From an uncultured Elusimicrobia bacterium (GTDB lineage: Bacteria; Elusimicrobiota; Elusimicrobia; F11), in the NCBI GenBank assembly GCA_964405835.1, contig CAYOPN010000004.1, forward strand, positions 4,082 through 68,081: 64,000 nucleotides of DNA. The letters are read 5' to 3'. The position numbers and the translations under genes are program-made. The notes under the pieces were generated by a model. That model saw only the letters and a list, made by a program, of their open reading frames with translations, searched no databases and had not been told where the DNA came from. This document shows positions 2,494-59,000 of the stretch, piece after piece (position 1 is the stretch's first letter; the number at the start of each line of letters is the position of its first letter).

Positions 2494-3858
<1,365 letters not shown>

Positions 3859-4143: not shown

Positions 4144-4439
4144 CCGTTTACGTCAATTGCCCCTGCTGCAGCGCGATGTTGGAGGTGGACGTTGAAGACG
4201 GACGCGTGGTCAACAAATGGAACGCATCCGAGCGCAGCAAGTCCGGCGAGGACAAAATGAAGGCCGCCTTACTGAAGATGGAAGAAGACAAGAGGAAGCG
4301 GGAAAGTTTGCTCGAAAACACCAAGTCAAACTTGGAAGCAAAGAAGAAGCGGATGGACGAGGTTTTTAAGAAGGAAGTTGAGAAGATTAAAAAAGACGGA
4401 CTGGGAGAGAAACCGCTTACGCCTTTCGACCTGGATTGA
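4140..4439 (+). CDS. small hypothetical protein with an N-terminal CPCC zinc-ribbon-like motif and a K/E-rich tail
   Basis: The start overlaps the ftsB stop. I recognised no family. Confidence 0.4.
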   Translation: MTVYVNCPCCSAMLEVDVEDGRVVNKWNASERSKSGEDKMKAALLKMEEDKRKRESLLENTKSNLEAKKKRMDEVFKKEVEKIKKDGLGEKPLTPFDLD

Positions 4440-11211: not shown

Positions 11212-11538
11212 ATGAAAATTCGTTACCTCTTAAGCGCCATCCTGTTTCTCGCATTCTCCTCTCAAGTTTTCGCCCTCCAAATTTCAGGCCCTGCCGAAAT
11301 CAGCAAAAAAGAAAAAGCGGTCATCACGATCACGCTTGCCGCCAACGAAAGCAAAGACGGGCTTCACTTTCACGTCACGACGCGCGCCAACGGGACTGTC
11401 GAAGCCCCGATGATCTGGACCGGAAACAGCGGCCAGGTTGAATTGGAAGGACTGCCGACGGGCTCCGTGATTCTTTCGATCACGAGGAACGACGCGCGCA
11501 AACCCTTATGCACGAAGGGCATGAAGGTGTTGCCATGA
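11212..11538 (+). CDS. small secreted hypothetical protein
   Basis: An AAGGAG-type RBS precedes the ATG. It has a signal peptide LLSAILFLAFSSQVFA. Its stop overlaps the next start (ATGA). Confidence 0.5.
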   Translation: MKIRYLLSAILFLAFSSQVFALQISGPAEISKKEKAVITITLAANESKDGLHFHVTTRANGTVEAPMIWTGNSGQVELEGLPTGSVILSITRNDARKPLCTKGMKVLP

Positions 11539-18835: not shown

Positions 18836-21817
18836 ATGAATTCAATTGCTCGGAGCCTTATCTCCATGAGCTTGGTGGGACATCTCGTCGCGCCGGCGTT
18901 CGCCGTTTCCCAGGATCCCCTTCAACAATTCAAACTCGCCTCCCTCGCCTACGAAAACAAACGCCTCGACAGCGCCTCCCAGGAATACGAGGGGTTCATC
19001 AAACACTTCCCAAACCACCGCCTCGCCGCCCAGGCCCGTCTTGCGCTTGGGGAAATCAAATTTGAACTAAAGAAATATCCCGACGCCGCCGATGAATATA
19101 CGGCGGTGATCAAAAAACATCCCGGAAGTTACGAGGCGATGAACGCGGAGCTGCGCCTTGGACAGTGCGAATACAACATGAAGAAGTACCTGAACGCGAT
19201 CGACCACTTTACGGTCGTAAAAAACAAAGCGCCGAAGGTGCTGCGTTCCGAAGCGCTTTTGGGATGGGCGCTTTCGCTGGTGGCGCTGAACAGCCACGAG
19301 AAAGCGGAGAACATGCTTGTTGAGCTTTTGCAGTCCTATCCGAAATACAAAACCAACGCGGCCGCCGTTGTTCCGCTGGGGCTTCTTTATATGGAGCGCA
19401 ACCGCCTGCAAGATGCGCTGGAAACACTTTCCATGATCAAAGACGACCTGGGAGCCCGTTACTACCACGGCGTGGTGTTGCGCATGATGGACCAGACCAT
19501 CGCGGCATCACAAATGTTCAAAGATGTTTTTCAGGAAGACCCGACCGGCCCCTGGGCAGACAAAGCCCAGCTCCAAATGGCCGAGGCCTATTACAAGGTC
19601 AACGAACTCAATCTCGCCTACGACAGCTTTCGCAAAGTCTATGACAAGTTCCAACTGAGCCCATTGCGCCCGTACGCGCTTCACCGCATGGCCTGCATCC
19701 AATTCCATCTCGGCCGTTACCAGGAAGCCGGCCTCAAATGGGAACAGCTTGTCCGAACCTTTGAAGACGACGTGAACCTGCCTTACGCGATTTACATGAT
19801 GGGAGAGATGGCGCTCCGCCAAGGCGAATACGGCAAGGCCATTTCGTTCTTCAGTCAGATCACGGATGCGCACGAGCTGCGCATGGACGCGCAGTACAAA
19901 ATCACCTGGTGCCTCGCGCAACAGAAACAAGACGACACCGCGGTGGCCCGCGCCGAGAAATTCCTGAAGGAATATCCGTGGGGCGAATTGGCCGCCAAGA
20001 CACACCTGCTCAAAGGCATTTGCTTGCAGCGAATGAAGAAGTACATCGAAGCGAACGCGGAATATCAGATCGTTCTCGACCAATTTGGAAAATCAATCCA
20101 TGCGGAGAAGGCCCTCTATTTGATGGGAACGTCCTATTTCCAAAACAAACAATTGGCGGAAATCGTGACGTCGTTGAACTCCCAGCTGAAATTGGCGCCG
20201 GTGAGCCCGACGCGTTGGCAAGCGGAAAGCTATCTGTGGGTGGCCGAAGCCTATTACGCGCTGGACCAATATGACGCCGCGCAACGGACGTATCAATTGA
20301 TTGTCGACAATTACAAAGACACACCGAAACTGGCGCATGCCATGTTGGGTGTGGCGGCAGCCTTGGCCAAACAGGGCGACTATGACAACGCGGCCGTCGC
20401 GCACGAACGCGCGCTGGGAATGGCGGAAACGCTCAAGAGCAAAGAAGTCAAACGTTCGGTGCTCATGGACACGGCCCAGGTGCTTTTCACGCAGAAGAAA
20501 TACGACAAGGCCATGGGCTACTTCGACGAATTTGTGAACCGCTATCCGGATGATTCGCTGGTCCCCGAAGCGCTCTTTCAGGCCGGTGTTTGTTTCTACC
20601 GTCTTGAGTACTACACCGAAGCGATCACCCGCTGGAACAAAGTGGTCTCCGGTTATCCGACAAACGGTCTGGCTCCAAAGGCCCTGTTCGAAATGGCCAA
20701 GACCCAGTTTGGTCTCGGCAAATACGACGAAGCCGGGAAACAATTTCAATTGCTCATCGACAAATACCCGCAGGCCGACAACGTGAAAGACGCGCGCATC
20801 CAGATTGCGCAGTGTTATTACAACCAGGGCCAATTTGAACTGGCCACCAAACGCTTGCAGGAATTCCTGAACAACTATCCGAAAGACCCGAAGGCCAAAG
20901 ACGTTCTGGAACTGTTGCAGATGGCGCACTATCGCGATGCCAAGGGGAAAGGCGATATGGCGCTTCTGACCGACAAATTCCCGAAGAGCAAACTGACGGC
21001 CGACATTTACTGGCAGTCCGGCGCCGACGCGTTCAACGCCAAGCAATACAAACAGGCGTTGGAATTCTTCCGCAAACTGGTCGGAGATTTCCCTGACGCG
21101 CAGCAGGTGGGACAGGCCTATTACTATATGGCCGAATCGCACTTTGCGCTGGAGGAATACGCGAACGCCGTGACCGCGTACAAAAATTTCGTCCTGAACT
21201 TTCCAGAACACCCGAGCCGCATTCAAGCGCTGTTCCGCCTGGGCGTAAGCCACTTCCAGACGCAGAATTACCGCGAAGCCGTGATCGCGTTTAACGACAC
21301 GCTGGAAGCCGACCCGAACGGCGGCCTGGCGCGCGACGCGCTGGTCAATATTCCGCTCTGCTACAAAAAGATGGGACAGCCGGCGCAGGCCATCTCGGCC
21401 CACGAACGTTTCTTGCAGCGCTACGGCAACGACCCGCAACGCAACAAAGTTTTGTTGGAGATGGGCGCGCTCTACGAAGAAATGAAGAACTACGAAGCGG
21501 CCGTGAAGAGCTTCGAAGCCATTCCAGAGAATTCGGACGAGTCGTTTGACGCGCTGGTCGGCCTCGGCCGCCTCTACCGCCTGATGAAATTGCCCAACCA
21601 GGAACTGCTTGTGTACGAAAAACTTCGCGGTAAGGGGCCGAAATCAAACGAAGTCCGTTTGACCGGCATGGTCACTCTGGCCGAGATGTACCAGGAAATG
21701 GGCAAAGTGGACGATTCCATTTCGGTCTACGAAGACATCGCCGCCAACAGCGCCAATCCGGATTGGAAACAAGCGGCGTTGGACCGCGCAAAAACGCTTC
21801 GATCAGAAGTCAAATAG
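18836..21817 (+). CDS. large tetratricopeptide-repeat protein (YbgF/CpoB-like repeats)
   Basis: It has a signal peptide followed by many A..Y..G.Y..A...F-type TPR units over 993 aa. Confidence 0.85.
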   Translation: MNSIARSLISMSLVGHLVAPAFAVSQDPLQQFKLASLAYENKRLDSASQEYEGFIKHFPNHRLAAQARLALGEIKFELKKYPDAADEYTAVIKKHPGSYEAMNAELRLGQCEYNMKKYLNAIDHFTVVKNKAPKVLRSEALLGWALSLVALNSHEKAENMLVELLQSYPKYKTNAAAVVPLGLLYMERNRLQDALETLSMIKDDLGARYYHGVVLRMMDQTIAASQMFKDVFQEDPTGPWADKAQLQMAEAYYKVNELNLAYDSFRKVYDKFQLSPLRPYALHRMACIQFHLGRYQEAGLKWEQLVRTFEDDVNLPYAIYMMGEMALRQGEYGKAISFFSQITDAHELRMDAQYKITWCLAQQKQDDTAVARAEKFLKEYPWGELAAKTHLLKGICLQRMKKYIEANAEYQIVLDQFGKSIHAEKALYLMGTSYFQNKQLAEIVTSLNSQLKLAPVSPTRWQAESYLWVAEAYYALDQYDAAQRTYQLIVDNYKDTPKLAHAMLGVAAALAKQGDYDNAAVAHERALGMAETLKSKEVKRSVLMDTAQVLFTQKKYDKAMGYFDEFVNRYPDDSLVPEALFQAGVCFYRLEYYTEAITRWNKVVSGYPTNGLAPKALFEMAKTQFGLGKYDEAGKQFQLLIDKYPQADNVKDARIQIAQCYYNQGQFELATKRLQEFLNNYPKDPKAKDVLELLQMAHYRDAKGKGDMALLTDKFPKSKLTADIYWQSGADAFNAKQYKQALEFFRKLVGDFPDAQQVGQAYYYMAESHFALEEYANAVTAYKNFVLNFPEHPSRIQALFRLGVSHFQTQNYREAVIAFNDTLEADPNGGLARDALVNIPLCYKKMGQPAQAISAHERFLQRYGNDPQRNKVLLEMGALYEEMKNYEAAVKSFEAIPENSDESFDALVGLGRLYRLMKLPNQELLVYEKLRGKGPKSNEVRLTGMVTLAEMYQEMGKVDDSISVYEDIAANSANPDWKQAALDRAKTLRSEVK

Positions 21818-44068: not shown

Positions 44069-47000
44069 ATGAGAATGTCCTTCTCACGTCCGGTTTTTTC
44101 CCACGATACATTCACACTCCGCCGTTCTCTCGCGTTGTGGTTGTCGGTCATTTACTTTATGACCAACGTACTTTATGCGGGGGGGCCTGCCGGCCGCCCG
44201 GCCGCAGCGCCGCTGCTTCCTCCGGTAACGCGCGCGCTACCATCTTCGGGCACGAAAGATCTGTTCCGAAAAAATCCGGTCCAAACTTACGCCAATGTGA
44301 AAATGGCTGCCGCACCCGCGGGGCCGTCCCGAAAATCGGTCACGATCATTCAAGATGTTCACGCCAACGCCGACGCACAAAAGAACATCGCCAACATCAT
44401 CGGTGTCCTCGAAACGCAGACACCGCGAGTGATCGGCATCGAAGGCGCTTCCGGGTTCCTGAATTTCGGGCCCTATCGCCAATTGCCGCGCCAAGAAATC
44501 GTCCACAAAACCGGCGCAAAATATCTCGAGACAGGGAAACTTCTCGGTTCCTCCTACGCCGCATTGACCCACAGCGGCGCTCCTTCGCTGTTGTTTGGAA
44601 TTGAGAATCCCAATTTGTACCGGCGGAACGTGGAGGCGACACTGGAAGCCGATAAGGACCGCCCGGCCACGCTGCAATGGCTGGAACAAATGGGAAAGCG
44701 GAACGCGGCGGACAAGCTCACATCCTACGGTCCCGCGCTGAAAAAAATCGATCACCACATGCGCGCTTTCGCGCGCGGCGAATTGTCGCTCGGTGATTAT
44801 GTCGGACGCTTGATGGAATTCCACGATTTGCCGTCGTCGATGCCGCTATTGACGTTTCACGAGGCGGTCAAAATGGAGAAGCGACTCGACTTCGCCCTCG
44901 TGGAACGGGAACGCGCCGAAGCGCTGGAAATATTGACCCGGAAAATGCGGCCCGAAGAACTCAAAGAATTGGTCGATGCTTCGATGGCCTTTCAAAAAGG
45001 GGAGATTAGTTCCGGCGAATTTTACCGGCATTTGAAAATGCTGCTGACCAAGCATGACGTGATCAATGACAACCGGCGGACCCTTGGAGATTACTTGCAA
45101 TACGTGGCGCTGGCCGAGTCGATCAAAGCCGATGAGCTTCTGAAAGACCTGAACGCTTATGAATCCCAAATCGTAAAGGACCTTGCGACCACGTCCGAAC
45201 AGTCCCGGATCGCAGCGGAATCAAAATGGCTGTCGCTCGCGCGCAAACTCGTGAATTTCGAGCTGACGCAGGATGAGTGGATGGAATACAACGCCCTCAC
45301 CCCAGCCCTCTCCCTGAAGGGAGAGGGAGAACTTGCCTCTTTTGAGGATTTCTATCGGATCGCTGATGCTCGCAACGGCGCCATGGTTGAAAATCTACTT
45401 CGCGCGATGGGCCGGAAGAATTGCGCCGACGGCATTCTCATTGCCGGCGGGTTTCACGCCGATGGCCTTGTAGATCTATTAAATAAGCGTGGCGTGGCTG
45501 TGACAGTGTTGACGCCCAAAATTTCCAAATTGACCCAAGGATCGAAGCCGCTCGAGTATCTCACGATTTTCCAACGCGAAAAAACCCCGTTGAGCCGCCT
45601 GTTCCACGGCCAAAAACTTTTCTTGGGCGCTATCGATGGTCTGGCGCCGGGCGCGATGCTCGTCCCCGCCAAAAATATCGGCGATCAATTCCGTGACGAT
45701 TTAAAAGACGCCCTTCAAGATGCTGGCGTAGACGAGGCCCTGGTTGACCCGGTACTGGACTTTCAAAAAATAAAAGAACGCATTCGGCAGAAGTTTGGGC
45801 CGGAACCGATGGTCACTTCCCGCATCGGTCATCGAGGAAAACAAAAGGACCCGGTTGAACTGGTCGATTCCATCTACAACACGCCGCTTGAACACCCACT
45901 GACTAAAGCGCTTTCCCGGCTCCAGCAATCGAACCCCAAAAATTACGCGACACTTGTCGAAAAAATATCCATCAATGGCACATTGCAAATCTATTGGGCC
46001 AAAAACCTGCCGTCCGCGGCCGGGCTGTTTTCAATGCAAGAAGAGATTGAAGGGAAAATAATCACTCTGACAGGGCTGTTGTTGGACAACGACGCGCGCC
46101 CGGTGCTCGAAGCGGCAGCCAAAGGAAAATCCGCACTTCAAAAAAAGGCGGTGGAGGACCTTCTCTATTTGCTGTTGGTCCATGAAGCCGCCGAACTTGC
46201 CACGCGCGGCGGTGATGAAACCTTGACTCCCAATTTGGTCAACGAATGGAAAGCTACACTTGAAGAAATCCAGCACTACTATATTCCGCCGCTCAAATTC
46301 ATCAAAACAACCATTCAAACCATTCATAGAGGGCCTTTTGAAGCGCTCTTGCGAAAACTGGATCGCGTCGACCGAAAATCAAAACGCTACAGCCGAACGT
46401 TGACGCTTTACAATTTGCTTCGGGAAAGCACTATCGAGGAAATGCCAAAGGTAGTTTGGGATTACCTTATCAAAGAACCGGAATTCGCCGGACTGAAAAG
46501 GTCCGAAAAAATCTTTCCCGAAGCCCCTGCAAAAACCAAAGCGTTACCGAAAACAAAAAAACGGGTCAATCGGAAAAGGAAATTCGAGATCTCGTTTCCG
46601 CTGAAATCAAAAAAACGGACCAATCCGAAAATTCTAACCAGGATCATTTCCTCGCGCCTCGGATACAAGAGTGTGGCGCCGGAAGGCCCAGTGACACCGG
46701 TGGATATGCTGGAGATCGAGGATATTGGAGCGCATATCAAAGTTTCTCTCACACGGCTGAACCGATTCGACCCGGAATTGTACCGCGTTTTTCTTGAGCG
46801 AATCACGTTCAACGGCCATCCGCAAATGTATTGGGCCGACAACCTCCCGTCCGCGGCGGGCGTGTTCTCAATGGAGGATCCGGATAATCCCGAAGGCGCC
46901 CCAATCACTGGTTTCCTGATCGATTCGGCATTGCGGCCTTTCGTTGAGCCAATCGAAGCAGGCAATCGAGATCGCAATTTCGCGCGGATCAACCTCATGT

Positions 47001-50000
47001 TTTTGTTGCTGGTCCATGAAGCTACCGAATTATCAGTGCGCAAAGACGGCGAAACCATCACGCCGAACCTCGTCGCCGAGGTGAAAGCCATACTGAAAGA
47101 AGCGGACGCGTACCGCTACATCCTCGGCGAGGTTGAAAAAAACGATTTAAAAAAATTGCTTCGGGAAATTGCGGACACCGAAATCGGCATGCCCGACCGG
47201 TTCACGCAGGTATTGCAATTGTGGGACCGCCTCGCCGATCCCGAGCTCGCCAAAGAAATCATTTTGGGAGAGCTGGTCGAATTGATTCTCAACGCCGGCG
47301 ACGTGACGTTGAAAGGGTGGAAATCAGTCAAAGAATTTGTCGATGATTTCATGGGCCGGCCGGATCCGCTCGAACTTGGTGACGTGATCGGATTGAGTCG
47401 CGAAGGAACGTTTTCTTTTAAGAAACACCACAACCACATGAAGATTTCTCCGGATGGAAAGAATTTGTTGATTGCTGACAGGGATGGATGGACGCTATTG
47501 GTTCCGAGCGATTTCGAACCCGGCACCAGCTATGAAACCCCTTCCATTCGCGTTGGAATAAAAGTGGACGACATTGCATTCTCAGCCAACGGACGCATGG
47601 TCGCCTTTGCGCATGAAAACGGATATGTGACGTTGGGAAAAATCGGCGTTCAGACCAACCGCAGCTCCCCAATTCCAATCGAAGAGGTCACGTCATCAAA
47701 AATAAATGAAGATGGCGTTCGAAAAATACTTTTCACGCACGACGATCATTATCTGATCGTGTTTTCCAATTCCGGCTGGGTCAGCTTCCATGCGGTGATA
47801 TGGGACCAGGAAAAAACATCCATAACCGAGTTGAAAGCCCCCTCTATCTCCTATCAATTGGGTCAAAACTTCAGATGGTGGGACATGGCCGCTTCTCTGG
47901 ATGGAGAAACTCTGGTGTTCGGCGGAGAATCTCTTGTGCACGACGGCCCTCTGAACAAGGGAAAGGTTGTGGCCCTAACGCTTTTACGAGAACCCATGAA
48001 TGGAAAGATCCGATCATTTCAAGTCAAATGGTCTACCCCCATAAATGTGGCCATCCATAAAATCGCCATCTCTCCCGACAACCGGCTTTTGGCACTGAGA
48101 GGAGGCGATGAAATTTGGATCGCCGACGCCCCGCATGCCAAGAATATGCGCAAGGCCCCATTGCAAGGACAAAGAAGCCCCACGCCGATGTTCCTTTCCG
48201 ACAACCAGACACTCGTTGTGGAGAGTGATTTTGGGCATGTGGAAATTTTCCACCTTTCCCGGACTGGCCAAGATTTGAAAGAAGTAAAAAAAGTCGCCGG
48301 CCGCACCATCGGAATGCGCATTGGAGACATCGCGGTCTCACCAGATCAGTCTCATTTGTTTGTGCTCGATTACAACGATGAGGTCATCAAATTTGACTTG
48401 AAACGCGCCCACGAGCGCACCACCTCAGGGCCGGCAGGCCGGTCCAACGACGATCTTCAGGAAGAGATCCGAGACCTGCTCTTGATGCTGGAAGATTGGG
48501 AAACGCAGTTAACGCCTTACTATTTCACTGAGGATCATGGTAAAAAACCACTCTTGTCATCCATTATCGATTCCCACATCGCGACTCTGCTTGATTTGTT
48601 GGCGGTCTTTCCAAAACCCGATGCGCCAACGGACGAAGAGAAAATTCAAAAATTTCCAGAAATTTTAACGGGACTTCTCATGCCATTCGAGACCCCAACA
48701 AGGGACGCGAACGTGCAGCCCCGTCAGCGGCTTAAAGTAAAAGTTATTTTAAAAGTGATGGCCGACCTTTTATTAGAACAGGAAGAACCATGGGAAGCTG
48801 ATTTGAGCCGTATGGATGTCACTTTCATCGAGAAGGTCATGCAAATTTTTCTTCTCGAAGTCATTCGAATCATGACGGAAGAAATGAAAAATACGGACGC
48901 AAAGACATTCGAAACCCACCTCGACGAATTCATTGACCCGCTTTATCCCTATAGCATGCGAGGACCTTTGAAAAAGAAGGTCCTCAATCAATTCAATAAA
49001 CAATTTGCATCGCCCTCTCACACCCATTTGCTGACCGAGCTCCCGCCGGCTTACGGGCGCGGGCGGGCGCCGCACAGAGAAAAAGGTGGCATCAACGAGA
49101 AAATCGCGGCCGCGTTTGATCGCGGGGACGCGATCGTGATTGATAACAGTGAGCATCGACGATTGGGGCAAGCGCTGAAGGCGGCCGCGGCGCAGCAGAA
49201 AGACGCAACGCTCAAGCTTCCGGAGCTGATTGCGTTTTTCAATAAAACCCAGGTGGTGTTGGTCCAATCCCCAACCGCGATCCCCGGTCTTTATATTCGC
49301 GGCCCCGACGATTACGCGGTGGCCCATTTCGGCCACTACAAAGGCCGCAACAGCATCTTCATCGATACCGACGTCTTTAACTTCCTCAAAGAAAATCCCG
49401 CCCAACTCCCCGCGCTGCTCTTCTACGAATTGGCCAAAGTGGCCGGCCATGATCAGGGCCTGGCCGAAAAAATTGAGGCCGCCATCGCCGGCAAGGAACT
49501 GTCGGCCGCCGTCCAAGGGTTCATCGAGGAAAAAATCGAAGCGCATCCGACCCGCTCCAACGTAATTGCCTACTACGTGGCCCGCGAAATCATGATGACA
49601 GCTCTGATATCCGGCAACGCCCACGCCTACCGCCGCGCGCTCGAAGAATGCGCGGCGCAAGCGAAATTGGCGGAAGAAAAATTGGATGGGCCGGCCGAGG
49701 ATGTTTTGTCGCCCATTGTGCGGTTGCTGCGCTGGACCGACAAGTTGCTGTTCAATAATAAAGGAATCGGCGACGACCTTGAGCTGGTCCGCGTGCAAGA
49801 AGAACAACTCACAAAAGCCGAGAAAAAAATCATCGCAGAAGAAACGGACATGTTCCTCGAAGCGCTAGGGTTCGATGAAGAACTCCAAAAGGACCTGGCC
49901 CGAAAAATTAAGTTGATCACCTATCCGCTCACGATGCTCAACATGATGCCGCATTCGATCGAAGGGATCCGGTTCACTCCGGCAGCGCTTAAATCAGTGG

Positions 50001-53000
50001 CGGAGTTGTTCAATATGTTTGCGCTGTGCCAAACGAACGGCATGGGCGGCATGGTCATGTTCAGTGGCATTTTGGAAAAAGATCTCACCATTCAGCTTCT
50101 CCAAACCGGCAACCTGTCGTTTTTCAAAGCGGCATTTCTGCATGAAGTGACCCATTATTTGGCATTTCAAAACGCGCTTCCATTTGACGGCGGCCATGAA
50201 ACCATCACGCAAGCGATCTCAACCGCTGTGTTATTGGTCGACGGCGGCGTGCCAGGACTAATGGAACCGCTCGGCGATCATGCGGAATCTAAAAAAATTC
50301 AAGGTGATTTGGTCGCGTTGGCTGAGAAGAGGGCCGGAAGCGATGCCGTACCACCCAATCAGGCGGGAATCACCAACATTGTGCAGGCTTATTTGCGCAA
50401 ACATGCCCCCGACGTTCTAAAAGGAACTCCCGCGCAGGTTCAAGACCAGATACAGCGAATGAGCGGCGTTTATCTGGGCGCTTTTGCCTGGGCGCATTGG
50501 AAAAAAGACAAAGAAATCAATGTCTACAAATTGATTATTGATTATGGAAAACGCCACTTGCCGCGCGTCCGCAATGCCGATTACCGGCGGAATTTGACCT
50601 ATCGCGATAGGCTCCTTATCGATGAATTGATCCGTGAAAAACTCGCGCCCGTCGCGCAAGTGACGCTGCCCGACGCGCAAGTCCGGTTCGTTCCGCGCTC
50701 GCGCCGTGACCTTGAAAAACCCGGCAAAGGAACGTGGAATTACGAGCGATTGCCCGATCACAAGCTCCATTACATCCCCTGGGACCTGATTGAATACGGA
50801 GAAGACGCCTCGGTCGGCCTAACACTTCAGGAAATCTTCCGTTCGAAGTTTTCCAGCGAAGACGTGATCGAAGAAGATTTCAATAACCTCTATTTCCGGC
50901 TGCTTTTCGGCATTGCCGAAACCAACCGGTTTGTGGCCCACGGGCTTTCTGAAAACCCGGGCCGCGTCGAGGAAATAGAAGCGTTCTATCGCAAGAAATT
51001 GCGAATCATGGATTTGGAGATTGAGAAAGAACGCATGGCCGAGAAATCCCAGTTCGTCCAATTCCTCGACGGCCTCTTGTACGCGTTGATGATGACCAAG
51101 GACGAAAAGGAAATCGTCCACGACCCGCGCGTCACCGATACGGAAGTGAAAGCCGCGCTTGATAACGCGATCCCGATCCTTTTCGGCGCGGTGGCGATGG
51201 ATAAACAAGGTTTCTATGAGGTTGTGCGCGATGAGGTTTGGCCGGCCGTCCAGAAATTATTGGAGCAGGACCTCGAGAAACTTAAACGGTCTGAAGAGGA
51301 AAAGCAGGCCATTAACGACATGCTCGAAAAAGGCGAAATCGAAATCGCCGATCCCGATGAAGAGATGATGAAGGGGAAATCAAAACCAAAACCCGGCGAC
51401 AAAATAAAGATCTCGTTATCGTCGGACGGCGAAGGTGATTTCGACATGGACGATCTGTCCGAAAAAGCCCGGGAGAACCTGCAAAAGGCCATCGACGAAC
51501 ATTTGAAGAAAATGAGCGCAAAGGAACGCGAGGAACTTGCCAAGAAAGCCGGCGCGAAAGCCAAGCAGGAGATGGGCAAGCAAGCGCGCGAAGCGGCCGG
51601 CGGAATGTCGGACGTGACCGGCGAAAGACGCGGCAAACCATCCGGCAAAGGCAAACCGCAAGGAAGCGGAAAACCCGGAGGAAATCTCGAGCAAGACGTT
51701 AAAGACCTCCATGATCTCGCCGATCAAATTGAAAAAGAAGCCGGCGCCGTGGAGCGTGCGGCCGAAGACGCCCAAAAGAACGCGGGCAAAGCAGGAACGA
51801 AAGCCGGCGCGATTGACCGCCAAGGCGGCGGCAACAGCGCGCAAGGACAAGGCATTAACGATTCGGTCGAGGAATTGATTGAGAAATTAAAAGAATTGCG
51901 GGAAAAAGCGCGCCGTTTCCAAGACAAGGCGGAGGAAATCGGCGGCCATTCCGATGATTTGAACGATGGACTGGAAGGGGAGAAATTGTCGGACAAAGCG
52001 CAGGACTTGCGGGACAAGATGCGCGACAAATCCGACGCAATCGAACGACTTGGCCAGGAATTGAACGACAAGGCCGCCGAAGCCGACGAAATCGCGCACG
52101 AGAGCGCGGCCCAGGGCGAAAAGCTTAAAGAAATGCTCGACATGGACCCCAAGCGCGTCGACAGCATCAAGGGTCATGCGCAAGATATTCAAAAGAAAAT
52201 CAATGAAGTCCGCGAGAAGCTTAATCAAGTCCGCAAAGACGCCGAAGAGGCCGTGACGGCCTCCGAGCAGCTCAGCAGCGAGTCCGGCGAACTGCAAGAA
52301 CAAATTAAGCGCGACACACCAATCGTCAGCGAGGGAGAGGAAGACGAAAACAATCCAAACGTGGGCGACCCGGGGGGCCACATTTCAGCGCGTAAAAAGG
52401 AGCCGCGCGACAACAATGAACGCAAGCGGGTCATGGCCAAAGACAAAAAAGGAACGAGCGGCCCGAAACACTCCATGGACCCGAAAATAAACGAATTAAT
52501 TAAGGAGTATTTGGAAGACAACGAGGACATTGATTTCACATCGGCCGCAGAGCGCGACCTCGAACAAAAGCAGGCGCTCGATCAATACACCGGCCTCACA
52601 GAAGGACAGCGGGTCGCCTACAACAAGATCCGCGACATTTCCGCGGAATATGAGTCCACGCTCAGAGAAGAAATTTTAAACGCGTTGGACGCCACCGAAC
52701 GCTCCGACATGATGCGCCGTCAGCGCAAAGGCCGCATCGATCCGCGCCGCCTGTCCATCGTCGAAACCGGCATCACCGACCCGTTCCAGATCAAACGCGA
52801 AGCCAATAAAAAGAAGCTGCGGATTTCAATTTTGATCGACGTAAGCGGCAGCATGTATCATGACCCGAACAACTTGGACCTGCAAAATCCCACCAGCGCC
52901 ATGCTCGCTTCCTCGAACCGGATAAACAATGCCATTAAGGTCGTCATTCTGTTCCTCGAAGCGTTCCGCGAAGACCCGCGCGTGGAGATCGAAGTCGGGG

Positions 53001-56000
53001 CCTTCGCCTCAACGCAAAAGATATTCAAAAAGTATGAAGACCCCATCACCGATGAATTAATCTACAAACTCATTGATCAATTGCTAAATCACAATCTGGG
53101 TCAGGATAACTCCGACTTGGCGGGCCTTTCCATGATTGTTATTTCCATGCGTGAGCGCGAAGCCAAAGAAGGCCCCGCCGCCAAATTGGTCACTGTCGTT
53201 GCCGACGGCGGCATCCATCCTTCCGACCGGCCGGGAATTGAGCAAATCCTTACGGAAAATACCGACATCGCGTTCATGGCGTTCGGGATCGGGTCCCAAG
53301 CGGCCGATGTGAAAAACGCTTACGCGCCGTTTGGCAGGAGTGTTAACGCTCTCTCAAAGCTGGTGGAAGAAACGGGCGAATGGCTGAAAGAGCAAGCCGA
53401 CCGCCTGATGAGCTTCGAATTTCTTTTGCTCATCGGGACCGTCGCGCTCTTCTTCAACAGTGGGCCCTTCAAACTGGGGATGCCTCTTTTGATGATGATG
53501 TTGTTGTTCGGATCCGTATTGGGCGTTGTCGTGCCGTCGATCTCCATTACCAAGAATCTGGACACAGAAAATTTTGAAGTGGTTCCCAGTAACGGCGACC
53601 GTTATTTGCAGGTCAAAAACGGCAAATACCCGACCTTCAAAGCGAAAATCAACGGCGAGGGCATCAACATTCCCAACGAAGAAATGCTCGAGACCGAAAC
53701 CAACGTGAAAGACGTGGTCAAAATCATCAAACGCGTCCAGCGGCAATATCTGGACCGCAGCCCGCTCTACATCGAAGGAGAGGCCGGCACCGGAAAAAAC
53801 AAAAAAATCTATTACTCGGCCAAGTTGATGCGCAAATCCGTGCGGTTCATGGCGCTGCACGAAGACGTGCACGAGGATGACCTGGTGGAACGTCGCGGCG
53901 TTGGCGAAAAAGAGCATGGAAAAACCGATTGGATCTTACAGCCGCTGGTAGAAGCCATGCGAAACGGTGATTGGATTATCTTTGACGAAGTGAACAAAGC
54001 CAAACCGGAAGTGATGGCACGACTGAACCAAATCGTGCAATCGCGCCGCGTCATGTTGCACGACGGAACAGAAGTCACCGCGAAAGAAGGTTTCGCGATC
54101 ATCATGACCGGAAACCCGCCGCCCAGCGCCAACGACGCCGAGGTCTACCACGTCAACAAACAGTCCGCCGAAATGCTGGACCGCCTTCGTGGCATGCGCA
54201 TCGGATATCTGCCGGACAAAGAAGAGTTGCAGCTGTTGCTTTCCATATTGATGAAGAGACGGGGTTATACCGACGTAAAACAAATTCCCGCTGCGGACCA
54301 AAAATTCCTCAAGGAATTGATCGATGCCGCCAATTTGATCCGCGACAACTACGAGGGGCTGGACAAGGCCACCGGCCGCAGCCGCCGCGGCAAGATGATC
54401 GCGCGCCCGCTTTCAACACGCTCTCTGGTCAACATCACCAAGCGGCTGGCTGATTTTCCAGATGATCGAAAACGGCCGCGGTCGTTGGTGCGGCGGTTTT
54501 ATTCCTACGAATGGAGCAAACCGGCCCAAATCAAAGCAGTGGAAGCGGCGCTCGACAACAAACTGACCGAAAAAGATGAAGACCTGATATTCAACGACAA
54601 AGATTTGAAGGGGCCTGAATACACCGAAGAAAAAGGCGTCCGTTACCTGAAATTTAAAGGAATCAAAGTGAAAGCCGGCCCCGGAGCGCCGGCGAAATTG
54701 GCCGACATTCCGCTCGACATGCGGGTGACATGGACCGAGACCAACCTTCGGTATCTCTATGAACTAATGATGGACTTCGGGCAAGAGAACCACATGCTGC
54801 TGATCGGTGAGGCCGGCACCGGCAAGGACCTACTGGCGGAATATCTCTGTTACGCACTGCACGGACCAAAATTTGACACCTTCGGTGTAACGCGCAACGC
54901 GATGGCGGAAGATTTGGTGGCGTATCTGGGCCTTGGTGAAGGAACGAAAATGGACGAGAAAGGAATGCTGGTCGCCGCGGGGAAACACGAAACCGGGATT
55001 GTTCCGGCGTATGTGGTACGCGCCATGGAAGCCGGACGACCCATCATTCTGGACGAAATCAACAAAGGCAAACCGGAAGTGTTTGCCGTGTTGAATAACA
55101 TCCTCGAATACAAATGGATCGATCTGGCCAATGGGAGGCGCGTCCATGCCCAACCCGGATTCATGATTATCGCCACCATGAACCCTTCCAATAAAAAGGC
55201 CTATCTCGGAAACTTTGACCTCTCCGGCGAATTTTTGGACCGGTTCTCGGTCCACAAATTCGATTACTTGAAACCCGGAGAAGAAGCCACCATCCTGTCG
55301 CAATTTAACGATGACCTTATCGCTGAGGATGGGCTCCGCTTCGGAAAAATCAGAAAAGAAGTCATCAACCGGCTGGTGGCAACGACGAACGTTCTCAGAG
55401 AAAAATACCGGAACAACCGGCTTCCGCACCCGGTGTCGATGCGCGCCGAAAAGCGCATGATCGTGACGCTGGCCGAATATCCGGAAGAATACAAGGACTT
55501 AAACGAATTGCTGGAAGAGTGCTTTGTGTTCAGCGATCCGGTCCATCGCCAAGCGGTCTTGGAAGCGGCCAAAGCGGAGAAGCTCGGCGAACTCAAAGAC
55601 ATCATTGAGGTCCGGATTGGCGTGGGCGATGCCGAAATCGACGCCGTGTTGGAAAAAATAAAATCGGAAAGCGAGAAAGGACATGCACCCGATGAATGGA
55701 CACAGCAATGGATCCAGCTGTTGCGACGGTTGGATGGACTGCTGGGGAAAAAATCGGCTGCCAAAAAACTGACTCCGGAATTGCGCTCCAAGACCAAGGC
55801 CATTTTGGAACGAATGGTGGCGACACTGCTCCCGCCCCCGCTTGCAGGACGCGCGCTCTTGGGAGCGTTAATCAATCATGTCCGCTCCCGGCTGGATGGA
55901 GTGGAAGTACCGGAGCTTCCGGAAATAACGTCGGAAATGAGCCATGCCGAATGGGGGAATGTACTCCAAAATCTAACCGTGATAATCGACTTTACGCTCC

Positions 56001-59000
56001 TGCCCGAAGATTTTGAGAAAAAAACTCTCATAGAAAAATCGGCTGGTGTGATTGTGGTGCCAGACCGGAAGCCAACGGCGCGCATGGAAACGATCGGCGG
56101 CGCCACCTTCCTTGTCGTCAATGGCGTGGCCAACGCCGCATCGTTTAACGAAGCCGCCTCCTTGGCGCTTCAAGTTTACGCCAAGGCAAAAATGGGGGAG
56201 GGGAAGGGCGTTGAAAAATTCCCGTTTTATTACCGGGTTCTTAAAGCCGCTCACCGCCAAAAGCCGTCCGATGCGCGAATGCTCGGCAAAGGATTCACGG
56301 AGTCCGGCCTTCCCAAGGAATTCATCGACAACTTTATTGAACTCAATGATTCGTCATGGCGTCAGAAAAACGCGATGCTCGTGAACCGAAAACGCAACGC
56401 GTTGATGGTCCAACTGGATTCCCTGAAAATTTCCGATCAGGAGAAAAAAGCCTTGTTGATAGCCTTGAAAATCTTTTCCGCCTCTTACGATCCACTTACC
56501 AAGGACGTCGACGCGCGTTTATCTAAATTAACCGTTGTTTCCTCTCGATTAGGGTTCAAGAAAGAAAAACCGGCGGGGGCGGTCGACCCAATCGGACGCG
56601 TTGATGAAAGTTCGCTTGCCGCGGCGTTCGAGAAGGCGCTTGAACGGTTTAAGGCCCAACATGCCGATTTATACGAGGAGTTATTGCTCCGCATCACACC
56701 GCCCGGGGAAAACACCGTCCCCCAAATCTATTGGGCCAACAATCTCCCATCGGCCGCCGGCATTGTCGAAATCGAAGGCATCACGGGGTTGATGTTCGAC
56801 CCGGGAATGAAGAGCATTCTTAAAGCGGAACTGCTCTCGAAAGACAAGCTCCGCGTTATGGCGGTCGTGAATCTCTTTTATCTGCTGTTGGTGCATGAAG
56901 CGATGGAGGTGTCGGACCGCAAAGAAAACGACACGCTGCGGCCGAATTTTCTCAGCGAAATAAAAGCGGTGATCGCCGAAGCGTACGCTTTTTCCAGGTT
57001 GAGCCTTGATGAAAACCAAGCGCTCGGGCGCCTTTACGAGAAACTGGATGCCGGGAAGGGCCACCGCGGATTTGGGCTGTTATGGGATTTATTGAACAAG
57101 TTCAAAGGGGCCGCCATCGAATGCAAAGCCGGGCTGATGGCCCTAATGGACCTGCTGATGATCGACCCCGATTACGCCGGTGCCGAAAAATCCCCGGACA
57201 AGATACGGGCCGAATTAAAAGCGTCGCACGACGTAGACGAGCCCCGGAAAGTTTCGACGGGAACAGAACCTGATTTCGAAAAAATATTTCAAGACACACT
57301 CCCGGGCGGGGTGGCCGCTTTTTCATTGTCGGAGGAAACCGACGAATACGTGGTGGCCGGCCCCGATTATTTCCGGCTTTACTCAAACCACAGGAGCATC
57401 ATCGATCAAAACTTGAGGGACTCCCAATTGATGCACGAGGTCAAAGTGGGGAAAAACATCGCGGCCATTAAGCTCCAACGCGATAAGAACCAAATTCTCG
57501 TCGCTTGCAGCGATGGAACATTGTTGGGTTATCAACTCCTGGCAAACGAAGAAGGGGCCATAACCGGCATCAAAAAAATATTTAAACAGAACCAGAACCC
57601 TGGGATTTTATTCCTATTGCCTTTCTTTTCTCCGCGGCTTATCGCTACTTTCTCCCCGAACGGCGGAAGCGTGGTGTTTGCCAATCCGCGGACCGGCAAG
57701 TTCTTTATAGTGGGCATCCCGTACCCCATAAGTGGTTACCACCATACGAACATCATTTACAAGGGCCGGGCAGGGGAGGGGATCATCAAAATCGCCATTG
57801 CCCAAGATGGGCGCACCGTTGTGTTTCACAGCGCCGCCAAAAACCAGCTGGACATCCTGAGTATCAATCTAAGCCAAGAGCTACGTTTCCACAACGTGAT
57901 GGAAATGGCGACTGATGAGCTAATTTACGAACCGGTATTTTTATCTGGAAACTCCCTCGCCATACGTTTACAAACATCCTATGGAGAGTTCCTTCGAGTT
58001 TACGCGCCACTGTTTATTTTCAATAACGCATGGCATGCCAACTTCAAGGAGCACAAATTCCATGAAGATCCCACGAAGCTAAAGTTCTCTCCCGAAAACC
58101 CGAAAATCCTTCACATCACCGCGGGTGATGTTCAGTTATTTCAACTCTCACATGGAGCATACCCGCTCATGCGTCTGAGCGAAGCCCATACAACAGCGGC
58201 AGCACTCTTTCCAACCGAAGAAGCCATCTTTGTCGGCAACGACAACTCCTTCTCAATATGGCGGATCGGAAAAAAGGGGAACATCAGTGGCAAGGTGGTT
58301 TCCTCCCGCCTCGGGTTCAAGAAAGAGAAACCGGCGGGCGCGGTTGAACCGGTCGGGCGCGTTGCTGAAAGCGCGCTTGCCGCGGTGTTCGCGAAAGCGC
58401 TCGAACGGTTGAAGTCGCAGCATCCCGATTTGCACGGAGCCATGATCAAACGCATCACGCCATCAGGTGAAAATGCGGTCCCGCAAATCTACTGGGCCGA
58501 GAATCTGCCATCGGCCGCCGGTGTGATTGAAATCGACGGCCTGACCGGCGTGATGTTCGACAGTGAAATGAAACCGGTGTTGGAAGCGTTCCAGGGCAAT
58601 GCTCAAGAAGAACGTGCGATTGAAAATCTTTTCTATCTGCTGTTGGTCCACGAAGCCAAAGAAACCGCATCCCGCAAACCCAATGAAGCGATTACGCCGC
58701 ACATTCACCATGAAATGTCCGCGGTGTTGGAAGAGGTGCGAAGCTACTTGAAACTGACGATGGGTGAAGTAAAAACGCTCGACCGGTTGTTCATAAAGCT
58801 CGATGAGGGAAAACTGCACGAACCGTTCCGATCGGTTATCAGGATTTATGACCTATTCACCGCGACGACCGATCTCCTCAAAGAGGGATGGGCGAAGCTT
58901 TTGGCCCTCATCAAGCAGGACGATGAATACTCAGGACAAGAACTGTTGAAAGCCAAACCGTCGTGGTCGGCCACGGTTGCAAGCGCCATTGCCACCAACC

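What the first reader, a model, noticed from the sequence alone, without database searches (positions are those of the whole stretch)
51262..55285. Cis-fused charged tract + MIDAS vWA + TM hairpin + two MoxR/CobS-type AAA_5 domains (a midasin/CobST/NorQD-like core in one polypeptide)
In known systems (CobS/CobT, NorQ/NorD, CbbQ/CbbO, MoxR/vWA) the AAA_5 ATPase and the vWA protein are separate subunits. The vWA partner typically carries an acidic region before its C-terminal vWA domain.

Here the same logic appears inside one chain:
- a D/E/K-rich tract at 51262-52545
- DxSGS MIDAS at 52838-52855
- two complete Walker A/B AAA_5 units (GEAGTGKN at 53777, GEAGTGKD at 54806)

A hydrophobic hairpin lies between the vWA and ATPase parts. 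A bacterial fusion with only two AAA_5 units would have to oligomerise to make a ring, which implies a very large membrane-associated assembly.
Basis: partly seen in the sequence, partly recalled or inferred. Interest (0 to 1): 0.75.

Follow-up and report, generated by a model that had tools for sequence, protein, structure and literature searches.

The report
Giant bacterial protein with midasin-like core
The flagged stretch is the middle of one 5189-residue gene from an uncultured bacterium. It joins a metal-dependent adhesion (vWA/MIDAS) domain to two dynein/midasin-type ATPase modules, and this is the conserved core of an uncharacterised family of giant proteins.

Summary
Every motif sits at the stated coordinates, in one reading frame. 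However, the region is only the middle quarter of a single 15.6-kb ORF (44069-59638, +, 5189 aa).

Domain calls:
- Two AAA_5 modules: Pfam E = 9.6e-44.
- A vWA domain with DxSGS and the distal Asp. It is sub-threshold on its own but clear from a family profile, where midasin's MIDAS domain is among the best solved matches.
- A mixed-charge, low-hydrophobicity tract.
- A two-helix hydrophobic hairpin.

The same collinear core recurs in about 20 giant proteins from Omnitrophota, Elusimicrobiota and Ratteibacteria metagenome-assembled genomes (MAGs). It reads: invariant HExxH(x14)E helical domain, charged tract, vWA, then a type-1/type-2 AAA_5 pair.

The hairpin is not conserved. In the closest relative a short hydrophilic linker replaces it.

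Some relatives carry three type-1/type-2 pairs, i.e. six modules, in one chain. This supports the idea that the single-pair window protein trimerises into a ring.

The AlphaFold model of the pair matches consecutive dynein ring modules (Foldseek E = 5.6e-21).

Verdict: a real, uncharacterised new variant of the MoxR-vWA / midasin theme. The mechanism is inferred, not shown. Interest is moderate to high.

The parts
44069..59638 (+). Single ORF of 5189 aa (giant multidomain protein). The finding lies inside it.
   Evidence: ORF list and translation. The same sequence is in the public protein collection as P0155, from an NCBI contig of 68458 bp. Homologues are collinear at 37-57% identity.
44126..44185 (+). 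N-terminal hydrophobic segment (aa 20-39), preceded by four Arg. Possible signal anchor.
   Evidence: Kyte-Doolittle maximum is only 1.43 in the window protein. Stronger N-terminal segments occur in P0002, P0003, P0007, P0011, P0118 and P0139.
45809..47257 (+). Repeat domains R1 (aa 581-838) and R2 (aa 855-1063). Motifs: 'YWAxNLPSAAG' and 'LLLVHEAxE'.
   Evidence: Self-BLAST E down to 1e-30. HMM of copies. No Pfam match.
47366..48328 (+). Beta-propeller-like region 1 (aa ~1100-1420).
   Evidence: Weak Pfam beta-propeller hits, E = 2e-6 to 1e-5, far below gathering scores.
49538..51283 (+). Conserved helical domain with invariant HExxH(x14)E (H2025, E2026, H2029, E2044; HEVTH at nt 50141-50155). 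Putative gluzincin-like metallopeptidase core.
   Evidence: Invariant in 8 of 8 aligned homologues. AF2 model pLDDT 88, pTM 0.86, with two strands, a HExxH helix and a Glu helix. Only weak local Foldseek matches to jannalysin, Ste24/ZMPSTE24 and BlaR1. No sequence match to PDB.
51260..52546 (+). Mixed-charge, low-hydrophobicity tract (aa 2398-2826).
   Evidence: 24% D+E, 18% K+R, net -25. The position is conserved in homologues.
52811..53383 (+). vWA domain with MIDAS motif (D2924-x-S-G-S2928; N3014/S3015 at the Thr position; D3046).
53405..53554 (+). Two-helix hydrophobic hairpin (aa 3113-3162). Variable in the family.
   Evidence: Kyte-Doolittle 1.73 and 2.36. Present in P0003, L008, L011 and L012. 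Replaced by a short RSE[LV]R linker in P0002, L006, L007 and L010. AF2 pLDDT 27-42.
53561..54628 (+). AAA_5 unit 1 ('type 1'): small 3-stranded beta domain, ATPase core (GEAGTGKN, DE 3306-7, N3349, R3372) and lid (R3451).
   Evidence: Pfam AAA_5. PDB: midasin, NorQ, CbbQ, CobS. AF2 pLDDT 80-90, with beta-hairpin inserts in helix 2 and before sensor 1.
54629..55648 (+). AAA_5 unit 2 ('type 2'): small beta domain, core (GEAGTGKD, DE 3662-3, N3705, R3725) and lid (R3792).
56534..57250 (+). Repeat domain R3 (aa 4156-4394), starting with 'VVSSRLGFKKEKPAG'.
57326..58288 (+). Beta-propeller-like region 2 (aa ~4420-4740). Tentative.
   Evidence: Only faint Pfam hits, E = 0.06-0.1. The collinear region of P0003 and P0156 carries WD40/beta-propeller hits.
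58295..58942 (+). Repeat domain R4 (aa 4743-4958), 62% identical to R3 over 145 aa.

Best explanation
The region is the conserved engine of a giant (5189 aa) multidomain protein that is probably tethered to the membrane. The source is an uncultured bacterium whose nearest relatives for this gene are Omnitrophota.

Shown here:
- One chain carries, in order: an invariant HExxH...E helical domain, a roughly 430-aa mixed-charge tract, a vWA domain with a MIDAS site, a variable hydrophobic hairpin, and a pair of non-identical AAA_5 ATPase modules (type 1, then type 2). The modules belong to the MoxR/midasin/dynein clade.
- This order is conserved in about 20 giant proteins.

Inferred mechanism:
1. 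Three chains associate through their AAA pairs into a six-module ring of alternating type 1 and type 2. Relatives spell out the same ring as three pairs in a single chain.
2. ATP turnover in the ring pulls on or twists the cis-linked vWA domain and its charged linker. NorQ does this to NorD, and midasin's ring does it to its MIDAS domain.
3. The MIDAS metal site holds an acidic residue of a client protein, so the client is remodelled or extracted.
4. The client is possibly presented to the neighbouring zincin-like domain.
5. [quoted passage not shown]
6. The repeat domains and beta-propellers at both ends would supply client or partner binding.
For: Domain identities:
- AAA_5 E = 9.6e-44.
- The best solved relatives by sequence are midasin, then NorQ, CbbQ and CobS.
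- The vWA family profile hits midasin MIDAS and other vWA structures. 10 of 10 members hit Pfam vWA models.

Catalytic and MIDAS residues are invariant or nearly so across 12 homologues.

The collinear core recurs in P0002, P0003, P0156, P0007, P0011, P0008, P0079, P0118 and L004-L012.

The pair is the repeating unit. P0008 and P0122 read 1-2-1-2-1-2. Methanosalsum P0005 reads 2-1-2-1-2-1 plus a C-terminal vWA.

AF2 model of the pair: pLDDT 80-93. It aligns over about 740 columns to consecutive dynein ring modules, E = 5.6e-21. It shows the helix-2 and pre-sensor-1 beta-hairpin inserts of this AAA+ clade.

The hairpin comes and goes without any change in its flanks, as expected if both flanks lie on the same side of the membrane.

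The NorQD mechanism is taken from PMC13036017. The general vWA co-chaperone role is taken from PMC3495828 and PMC7159879.
Against: - No oligomer was modelled and no experiment exists.
- Walker A ends in Asn (unit 1) or Asp (unit 2) instead of Ser/Thr, so Mg-ATP handling may be atypical.
- In the closest relatives the Walker B Asp of unit 2 is Ser or Thr.
- The MIDAS Thr is not clearly present in the window protein.
- Topology is unresolved. The N-terminal segment looks N-in by charge, which would put everything downstream, ATPases included, outside the cytoplasm. The hairpin was modelled with low confidence.
- The zincin assignment rests on the motif, the topology and weak local Foldseek hits only.
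- Genomic neighbours are housekeeping genes and differ between homologues, so context gives no functional clue.
Confidence: 0.5

Rival explanations
1. The gene encodes a polyprotein. The chain is cut at conserved short linker motifs, so the vWA/zincin part and the AAA pair end up as separate subunits. After processing, the system is an ordinary two-component MoxR-vWA chaperone and the cis fusion exists only at gene level.
For: - A short motif recurs at domain boundaries: 'RSELR' x6 in P0002, 'RSE[VAI]R' x10 in L004, x4 in L007 and P0156.
- The homologous 'SSRLG[FY]K' occurs x3 in the window protein.
- In P0002, L006, L007 and L010 one copy sits exactly between the vWA and AAA unit 1, where the window protein has its hairpin.
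- An invariant HExxH...E domain is built in.
- Post-translational cleavage of Omnitrophota giant proteins has been proposed (10.1101/2023.11.21.568195).
Against: - In the window protein the motif is found only at the starts of the repeat domains, not between the vWA and the AAA units. It may simply be the first strand of that domain.
- No cleavage has been shown.
- The peptidase assignment is weak.
Confidence: 0.2
2. It is a fused version of the 'vWA-MoxR ternary' conflict systems. In those systems a MoxR-vWA pair sets a threshold for releasing an effector. Here the beta-propellers would act as sensors and the zincin-like domain as effector, used in defence or in predation on host cells.
For: - Beta-propeller-containing vWA-MoxR systems have been described with a long alpha-helical N-terminal region on the vWA protein and membrane-spanning partners. 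Their MoxR has a P-loop variant GxxxTAKS (PMC7159879).
- AAA unit 1 of P0002 and L008 reads GEAGTAKN.
- Omnitrophota are reported as predatory or host-dependent (abstract of 10.1101/2023.11.21.568195).
Against: - PADLOC gives no hit.
- No effector adaptor domains, no mobile or variable gene neighbourhood, housekeeping neighbours.
- The resemblance to the described systems was not tested by sequence.
Confidence: 0.15
3. The AAA units are nucleotide-binding scaffolds without hydrolysis, or the bulk of the protein is exported and acts as a surface adhesin, with the vWA domain as the adhesive element.
For: - Non-canonical GKN/GKD P-loops.
- Ser/Thr at the Walker B Asp position of unit 2 in relatives.
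- An N-terminal signal-like segment with a positively charged N-flank.
- vWA domains are common in adhesins. The best profile hit is a mussel thread matrix protein.
Against: - Walker A Lys, Walker B Glu, sensor-1 Asn and both Arg positions are invariant or nearly so in both units across distant homologues. That is hard to explain without catalysis in an ATP-containing compartment.
- The charged flanks of the hairpin in P0003, L008 and L011 are positive.
Confidence: 0.1
4. Assembly chimera or decaying pseudogene.
For: None found. The origin in a metagenome-assembled genome is inferred only from the MAG provenance of the nearest homologues. The window's own source was not identified.
Against: - 15.6 kb of uninterrupted frame.
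- End-to-end collinearity with independent assemblies at 37-57% identity.
- Conserved catalytic residues.
Confidence: 0.02

Closest known systems
Midasin (Rea1/MDN1), eukaryotic ribosome-assembly AAA+ protein
   Same: - AAA_5 modules concatenated in one roughly 5000-aa chain, together with a charged tract and a MIDAS vWA domain in cis.
- Best solved sequence match for both AAA units.
- Among the best matches for the vWA profile.
   Different: - Two AAA modules, not six.
- Order is charged tract, vWA, then AAA, instead of AAA ring, linker, D/E-rich tract, MIDAS.
- The tract is mixed-charge.
- An extra HExxH...E domain, repeat domains, propellers and hydrophobic segments.
- Bacterial.
NorQ-NorD, CbbQ-CbbO, CobS-CobT (MoxR-type AAA_5 hexamer plus vWA adaptor)
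   Same: - Same AAA_5 class (NorQ E = 1e-9, CbbQ, CobS) working with a MIDAS vWA protein that has a long linker.
- Likely the same logic of the ring acting on the vWA partner.
   Different: - Those are separate genes, with one AAA per chain forming homohexamers, linked to their target operons.
- Here the parts are fused, there are two non-identical modules, and the neighbours are housekeeping genes.
- NCBIfam CobS and GvpN scores are far below their cut-offs.
Prokaryotic six-module AAA_5 proteins found here: Methanosalsum zhilinae WP_013897510 (P0005, 3261 aa) and an Endomicrobiia MAG protein MCL1972030 (P0008, 5936 aa)
   Same: - The same alternating type-1/type-2 AAA_5 pairs plus a vWA domain in cis.
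- P0008 also shares the HExxH domain, the charged tract and the vWA-before-AAA order.
   Different: - They carry three pairs (a whole ring) per chain. The window protein carries one pair.
- P0005 has its vWA at the C-terminus, as in midasin.
Dynein motor domain
   Same: The predicted tandem pair superposes on consecutive ring modules (Foldseek E = 5.6e-21, about 740 columns).
   Different: - No linker, stalk or microtubule-binding parts.
- Only 11-15% sequence identity.
- Dynein has no vWA domain.
Mg-chelatase D subunit (BchD/ChlD)
   Same: A cis fusion of an AAA+ module, an acidic linker and a MIDAS vWA domain in bacteria (my own knowledge, not tested here).
   Different: - Order is AAA then vWA, with a single module of the chelatase subfamily.
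- Pfam Mg_chelatase scores only 21.5 bits here, under a much stronger AAA_5 hit.
Beta-propeller-containing vWA-MoxR ternary systems (Kaur et al. 2020, PMC7159879)
   Same: MoxR + vWA with beta-propellers, helical N-terminal regions, membrane segments and an unusual P-loop variant.
   Different: - Multi-gene systems with a variable third component.
- The relationship to this family was not tested by sequence.
- No PADLOC hit.

Membership tests
AAA_5 / MoxR-midasin-dynein clade of AAA+ ATPases | Profile match above the curated threshold | tested here: met
   PF07728: 149 bits against a gathering score of 22, two stretches.
AAA_5 / MoxR-midasin-dynein clade of AAA+ ATPases | Canonical Walker A GxxGxGK[ST] | tested here: not met
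   The Lys is present (K3243, K3586), but the next residue is Asn (unit 1) or Asp (unit 2). GKN is conserved in unit 1 across the family.
AAA_5 / MoxR-midasin-dynein clade of AAA+ ATPases | Walker B hhhhDE, sensor-1 Asn, Arg finger, sensor-2 Arg | tested here: met
   - Present: D3306/E3307, D3662/E3663, N3349, N3705, R3372, R3725, R3451, R3792.
- Most are invariant or at least 90% conserved.
- Roles are assigned by position, not by structure.
- R3451 is Ala in the P0006/P0007/P0011 subgroup.
AAA_5 / MoxR-midasin-dynein clade of AAA+ ATPases | Beta-hairpin inserts in helix 2 and before sensor 1 | tested here: met
   Strand pairs at model residues 380-382/394-396 and 433-435/441-443 (unit 1), and 724-727/749-752 and 789-791/797-799 (unit 2), in the AF2 model. 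This is model-based.
vWA domain with MIDAS site | Profile match above the curated threshold | tested here: inconclusive
   The window copy scores 21.1 bits against a gathering score of 23.8. 9 of 10 relatives match VWA (best E = 6.7e-13) and 10 of 10 match VWA_2. The family profile hits solved vWA domains.
vWA domain with MIDAS site | DxSxS + Thr + Asp metal ligands | tested here: inconclusive
   DxSGS and D3046 are invariant. The Thr column reads Asn3014, followed by Ser3015, in the window protein, P0002 and P0003. It is Thr in the other seven.
Midasin (Rea1/MDN1) | Six AAA modules in one chain forming the ring | tested here: not met
   Two modules only.
Midasin (Rea1/MDN1) | Order: N-terminal AAA ring, linker, D/E-rich tract, C-terminal MIDAS | tested here: not met
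   The charged tract and vWA precede the AAA units, and 1300 further residues follow them.
Midasin (Rea1/MDN1) | MIDAS binds UBL domains of ribosome assembly factors | not testable with these tools
   There is no such partner to look for in bacteria.
Two-component MoxR-vWA chaperones (NorQD, CbbQO, CobST, RavA-ViaA) | ATPase and vWA protein encoded as separate genes, with one AAA module per chain | tested here: not met
   One ORF, two modules.
Two-component MoxR-vWA chaperones (NorQD, CbbQO, CobST, RavA-ViaA) | Linkage to a target operon | tested here: not met
   Neighbours are MurQ, a NagZ-like protein, TrpRS, TldD/PmbA, MBOAT, MiaA, HflX and PlsY. They differ in the homologues.
GvpN / CobS equivalogs (NCBIfam) | Score above the equivalog cut-off | tested here: not met
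   GvpN 61 against 266.8; CobS 37 against 558.6.
Gluzincin metallopeptidases (for the upstream domain) | HExxH plus a downstream Glu ligand on the next helix, preceded by a beta-sheet | tested here: inconclusive
   The motif is invariant and the predicted topology fits. Only weak local Foldseek hits (jannalysin probability 0.66, E = 4.3). No Pfam or PDB sequence hit.
Known anti-phage defence systems (PADLOC) | Match to any PADLOC model | tested here: not met
   No hits at E <= 0.01.

The most novel reading that the evidence does not exclude
Bacteria and archaea hold a lineage of concatenated, alternating-type AAA_5 rings with a MIDAS domain in cis. Members carry one, two or three pairs per chain. 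The published view (PMC3495828) is that six-module arrays of the dynein/midasin type arose early in eukaryotic evolution. On the novel reading that design principle is not a eukaryotic invention. The window protein would be a trimeric, membrane-tethered member that couples such a ring to a built-in zincin peptidase and self-processing linkers.
Probability: 0.3. Interest if true: 0.8.

Novelty: new variant of a known kind. Interest (0 to 1): 0.6.

Why it matters
MoxR-type ATPases and their vWA partners are widespread, and their mechanism is only now being worked out (NorQD, 2026). This family offers natural fusions in which the ring modules, the vWA adaptor, its linker and a putative peptidase are wired in a fixed order. 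It also offers relatives with one or three module pairs per chain, which is a ready-made comparative series for asking how the ring acts on the vWA domain.

The family also bears on where the concatenated rings of midasin and dynein came from.

Finally, it gives a first functional handle on one class of the giant proteins that are common in Omnitrophota and neighbouring candidate phyla and are mostly without any domain annotation.

Tried and rejected
Homology and locus searches that led nowhere:
- The word-indexed search with the region found only one relative.
- The full-length alignment was too long to submit.
- The HExxH-domain alignment returned nothing, not even the query's own protein. 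This is a limit of candidate selection, not evidence of absence.
- The search for related loci with the broad alignment had no usable conserved stretch. A narrower alignment worked.

Annotation of the rest of the protein:
- Pfam at E <= 10 on the N-terminal domain, the repeat domains, aa 1420-1823, aa 3860-4150 and the C-terminus gave nothing meaningful.
- NCBIfam gave only sub-threshold GvpN and CobS hits.
- PADLOC gave nothing.
- Rfam gave nothing in the window.

The HExxH domain:
- Foldseek had no global match.
- Its profile had no PDB sequence match.

The source organism could not be named.

Readings considered and rejected:
- Membership of GvpN, CobS or Mg-chelatase: scores are below cut-off or under a stronger AAA_5 hit.
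- Pseudogene or chimera: collinear homologues argue against it.
- A defining role for the hairpin: it is absent in the closest relative.

An untested idea from memory: the N-terminal domain (aa ~90-580; 'IIQDVHAN' and 'IAGGFHADG') resembles the ChaN/Tiki/TraB fold. It found no support in Pfam.

Full report
**What is at the coordinates.** The flagged stretch (51262-55285) lies wholly inside one open reading frame, 44069..59638 on the + strand, 5189 codons. DVSGS is at aa 2924, GEAGTGKN at aa 3237 and GEAGTGKD at aa 3580. The two most hydrophobic stretches of the whole protein lie at aa 3113-3162. The tract at aa 2398-2826 has 24% Asp+Glu, 18% Lys+Arg, net charge -25, and about half the usual share of hydrophobic residues. 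It is a mixed-charge tract rather than a purely acidic one.

**Domain identities: the AAA units.** Pfam assigns the two P-loop regions to AAA_5 at 149 bits against a threshold of 22 (E = 9.6e-44, two stretches). Weaker overlapping hits go to related AAA models. By sequence, the closest solved proteins for each unit separately are midasin, whose score sums over several of its six modules. NorQ, CbbQ and CobS follow. NCBIfam's GvpN and CobS models score far below their cut-offs. The units therefore belong to the clade but to none of those named families.

**Domain identities: the vWA domain.** It is sub-threshold in the window protein alone (17.8 to 21.1 bits against 23.8). An alignment of ten family members settles the question. 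All ten match VWA_2 and nine match VWA, best E = 6.7e-13. The family profile finds solved vWA domains, including the isolated MIDAS domain of midasin (6qt8, E = 3.2e-7) and the BatB/aerotolerance proteins.

- The P-loops are AAA_5, not an unrelated NTPase class.
- The distal MIDAS Asp (D3046) is invariant.
- The Thr position is the one soft point. Seven distant relatives read G-T-[SDE]-D (GTSD, GTDD or NTED). The window protein and its two closest relatives read D-N-[ST]-D. An Asn, or the adjacent Ser, may take the role.

**Catalytic residues.** Across twelve homologues the following are invariant or at least 90% conserved in both units: Walker A Lys, Walker B Glu, sensor-1 Asn, the Arg of the LDR[LF] motif, and an Arg in the lid. 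There are three deviations.
- Walker A ends in Asn (unit 1, conserved family-wide) or Asp (unit 2) instead of Ser/Thr.
- In the four closest relatives the Walker B Asp of unit 2 is Ser or Thr. The window protein keeps Asp.
- Unit 1 of P0002 and of L008 reads GEAGTAKN.

**The family.** An exhaustive HMMER search of 1.84 billion representatives gave 2911 hits at E <= 0.001. The top ones are not midasins but a set of giant prokaryotic proteins. BLAST mapping and motif scans show a fixed order:
1. an HExxH site;
2. about 900 residues further on, the vWA DxSGS;
3. 280-490 residues further on, Walker A of unit 1;
4. about 345 residues further on, Walker A of unit 2.

Members with source names come from Omnitrophota, Ratteibacteria and Elusimicrobiota/Endomicrobiia MAGs and are annotated only as 'AAA family ATPase'. 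A scan of one genome per species found close relatives (47-58% identity) in about nine MAGs labelled Omnitrophota, Elusimicrobia or simply uncultured bacterium. It found distant relatives in a Planctomycetales MAG and in Halodesulfurarchaeum and other Halobacteriales archaea. The window's own protein is in the public collection (P0155, NCBI, 68.5-kb contig) without a name. I could not identify the organism.

Gene neighbours in the window are housekeeping genes: MurQ, a NagZ-like glycosidase, TrpRS, TldD/PmbA and MBOAT upstream, and MiaA, HflX, a CDP-alcohol phosphatidyltransferase and PlsY downstream. The neighbours differ in the homologues. The gene therefore stands alone.

**The upstream conserved domain.** The region at aa 1824-2405 aligns across eight homologues with H2025, E2026, H2029 and E2044 invariant. 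AlphaFold2 on that alignment gave a confident model (pLDDT 88, pTM 0.86). Two strands precede the helix carrying HExxH, and the Glu opens the next helix. That is the layout of a gluzincin active site, set in a large helical scaffold. Foldseek found no global match. It gave only weak local matches to the minigluzincin jannalysin (probability 0.66, 78 columns, rmsd 3.2), Ste24/ZMPSTE24 and BlaR1. There is no sequence match to solved structures. I treat 'zincin-like peptidase' as likely but unproven.

**The hairpin is variable.** A two-segment hydrophobic insert sits between the vWA and unit 1 in the window protein, P0003, L008, L011 and L012. A single milder segment occurs in P0006, P0007 and P0011. 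In P0002 (the closest relative for this part, 57% identity), L006, L007 and L010 a short hydrophilic linker replaces it, and in L004 a much longer one of roughly 200 residues does. The linker carries the motif RSE[LV]R. An element that comes and goes while its flanks stay aligned is best read as a two-pass or re-entrant tether, which leaves both flanks on the same side of the membrane. The flanks are positively charged in P0003, L008 and L011, which hints at the cytoplasmic side. The conserved catalytic residues also point to an ATP-containing compartment. Against this, the N-terminal hydrophobic segment has the more positive N-flank, which would export what follows. The topology remains open. 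AlphaFold gave the hairpin low confidence.

**One pair is one third of a ring.** I built separate HMMs for unit 1 and unit 2 and typed the modules in relatives.
- The window protein and its near relatives read 1-2.
- Endomicrobiia P0008 and P0122 read 1-2-1-2-1-2.
- The 3261-aa protein of the cultured archaeon Methanosalsum zhilinae (P0005, WP_013897510) reads 2-1-2-1-2-1, followed by a C-terminal vWA.

The type-1/type-2 pair is therefore the evolutionary unit, and three pairs make a six-module chain. The AlphaFold model of aa 2895-3860 (pLDDT 74 overall, 80-93 in the AAA units) aligns to dynein motor domains over about 740 columns, E = 5.6e-21. This shows that the two units are placed like ring neighbours. 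The model also shows the beta-hairpin inserts in helix 2 and before sensor 1 that mark this AAA+ clade, and a small three-stranded domain before each unit.

**How it most likely works.** I infer a trimer whose six AAA_5 modules form an alternating ring at the membrane. The ring uses ATP to pull or twist the cis-linked vWA domain through its charged linker. NorQ remodels the NorD linker in this way (PMC13036017), and midasin's ring acts on its MIDAS domain. The MIDAS site would grip an acidic residue of a client. The zincin-like domain may cut the client or the chain itself. The repeat domains and propellers would bind clients or partners. Domain identities are shown. Ring formation is supported by comparison. 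Everything downstream of that is inference.

**Rival readings.**
1. A polyprotein cut at the recurrent linker motif, giving ordinary separate subunits.
2. A fused relative of the beta-propeller-type vWA-MoxR conflict systems, which share an odd TAK P-loop (PMC7159879). PADLOC finds nothing.
3. Hydrolysis-dead or exported modules. This is argued against by residue conservation.
4. An artefact. This is excluded by collinear homologues.

**Comparison with the literature.** Published work treats MoxR as the prokaryotic precursor. It places the six-module concatenation that led to midasin and dynein early in eukaryotic evolution (PMC3495828). Studies of Omnitrophota giant proteins list AAA_5 among frequent domains but do not analyse this architecture (10.1101/2023.11.21.568195; 10.64898/2026.06.07.730766). 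Searches for prokaryotic midasin-like proteins found nothing in the held library. From memory, the COG database has an 'MDN1' group with prokaryotic members, so such proteins are catalogued even if undescribed. I could not check this.

**Verdict.** This is a new variant of a known kind (MoxR-vWA / midasin-like machines). It is real, conserved and uncharacterised.

Noticed in passing
window 46649, 56540, 58301 (aa 861, 4158, 4745); degenerate copy at 45815; homologues P0002, P0156, P0079, L004, L007, L008, L012: A short linker motif recurs at domain boundaries.
- 'SSRLG[FY]K' occurs x3 in the window protein, at the starts of repeat domains R2-R4.
- The homologous 'RSELR' occurs x6 in P0002, and 'RSE[VAI]R' x10 in the L004 ORF.
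- A fixed 5-mer is expected about 0.002 times per protein.
- This is a possible processing or docking site.
   Followed up: partly
window 45809-47257, 56534-57250, 58295-58942: Four copies of a roughly 210-aa domain of unknown fold ('YWAxNLPSAAG ... LLLVHEAxE'), with no Pfam match. Copies also occur in P0002, P0003, P0118 and at the N-terminus of P0001. The His of 'HEA' is lost in the P0002 copies, so the domain is probably not catalytic.
   Followed up: partly
window 49538-51283 (HEVTH at 50141-50155, E2044 at 50198-50200): An invariant HExxH(x14)E in a confidently modelled helical domain with no global structural match. It always lies about 900 residues upstream of the vWA in this family.
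   Followed up: yes
P0005 (Methanosalsum zhilinae WP_013897510), P0008 (Endomicrobiia MCL1972030), P0122: Prokaryotic proteins with six alternating AAA_5 modules in one chain. The archaeal one has a C-terminal vWA, i.e. the midasin order.
   Followed up: partly
window 53795-53800 and 54824-54829 (aa 3243-3244, 3586-3587): The Walker A motifs end GKN and GKD rather than GK[ST]. GKN is conserved in unit 1 throughout the family. The Walker B Asp of unit 2 is Ser/Thr in P0001, P0002, P0003 and P0156 but Asp in the window protein.
   Followed up: partly
window 44186-45808 (aa 40-580): An N-terminal domain shared with P0002, P0003, P0008 and P0156. The motifs 'IIQDVHAN' and 'IAGGFHADG' recall ChaN/Tiki/TraB-type proteins (from memory). 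There is no Pfam support.
   Followed up: partly
window 11508-17420 and 17434-18792: Another large ORF (1970 aa) and its 452-aa neighbour both end in FlgD_ig / CHU_C-like domains (a type IX secretion-type C-terminal signal; the 1970-aa ORF's hits are just under Pfam's thresholds, the neighbour's FlgD_ig is just over). A 993-aa TPR protein follows at 18836-21817.
   Followed up: no
L001 1-9809 (contig JAUYMS010000017.1): In the Omnitrophota MAG that carries P0002, the gene is directly preceded by another giant gene (8777 aa, with no Pfam hit on record).
   Followed up: no
window 53561-53650 and 54617-54673 (aa ~3169-3194, 3517-3535): Each AAA unit is preceded by a small conserved three-stranded beta domain ('F.VV.E.GK.YLVV' and 'VRYLKFKGIKVKAG') in the AF2 model.
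   Followed up: no
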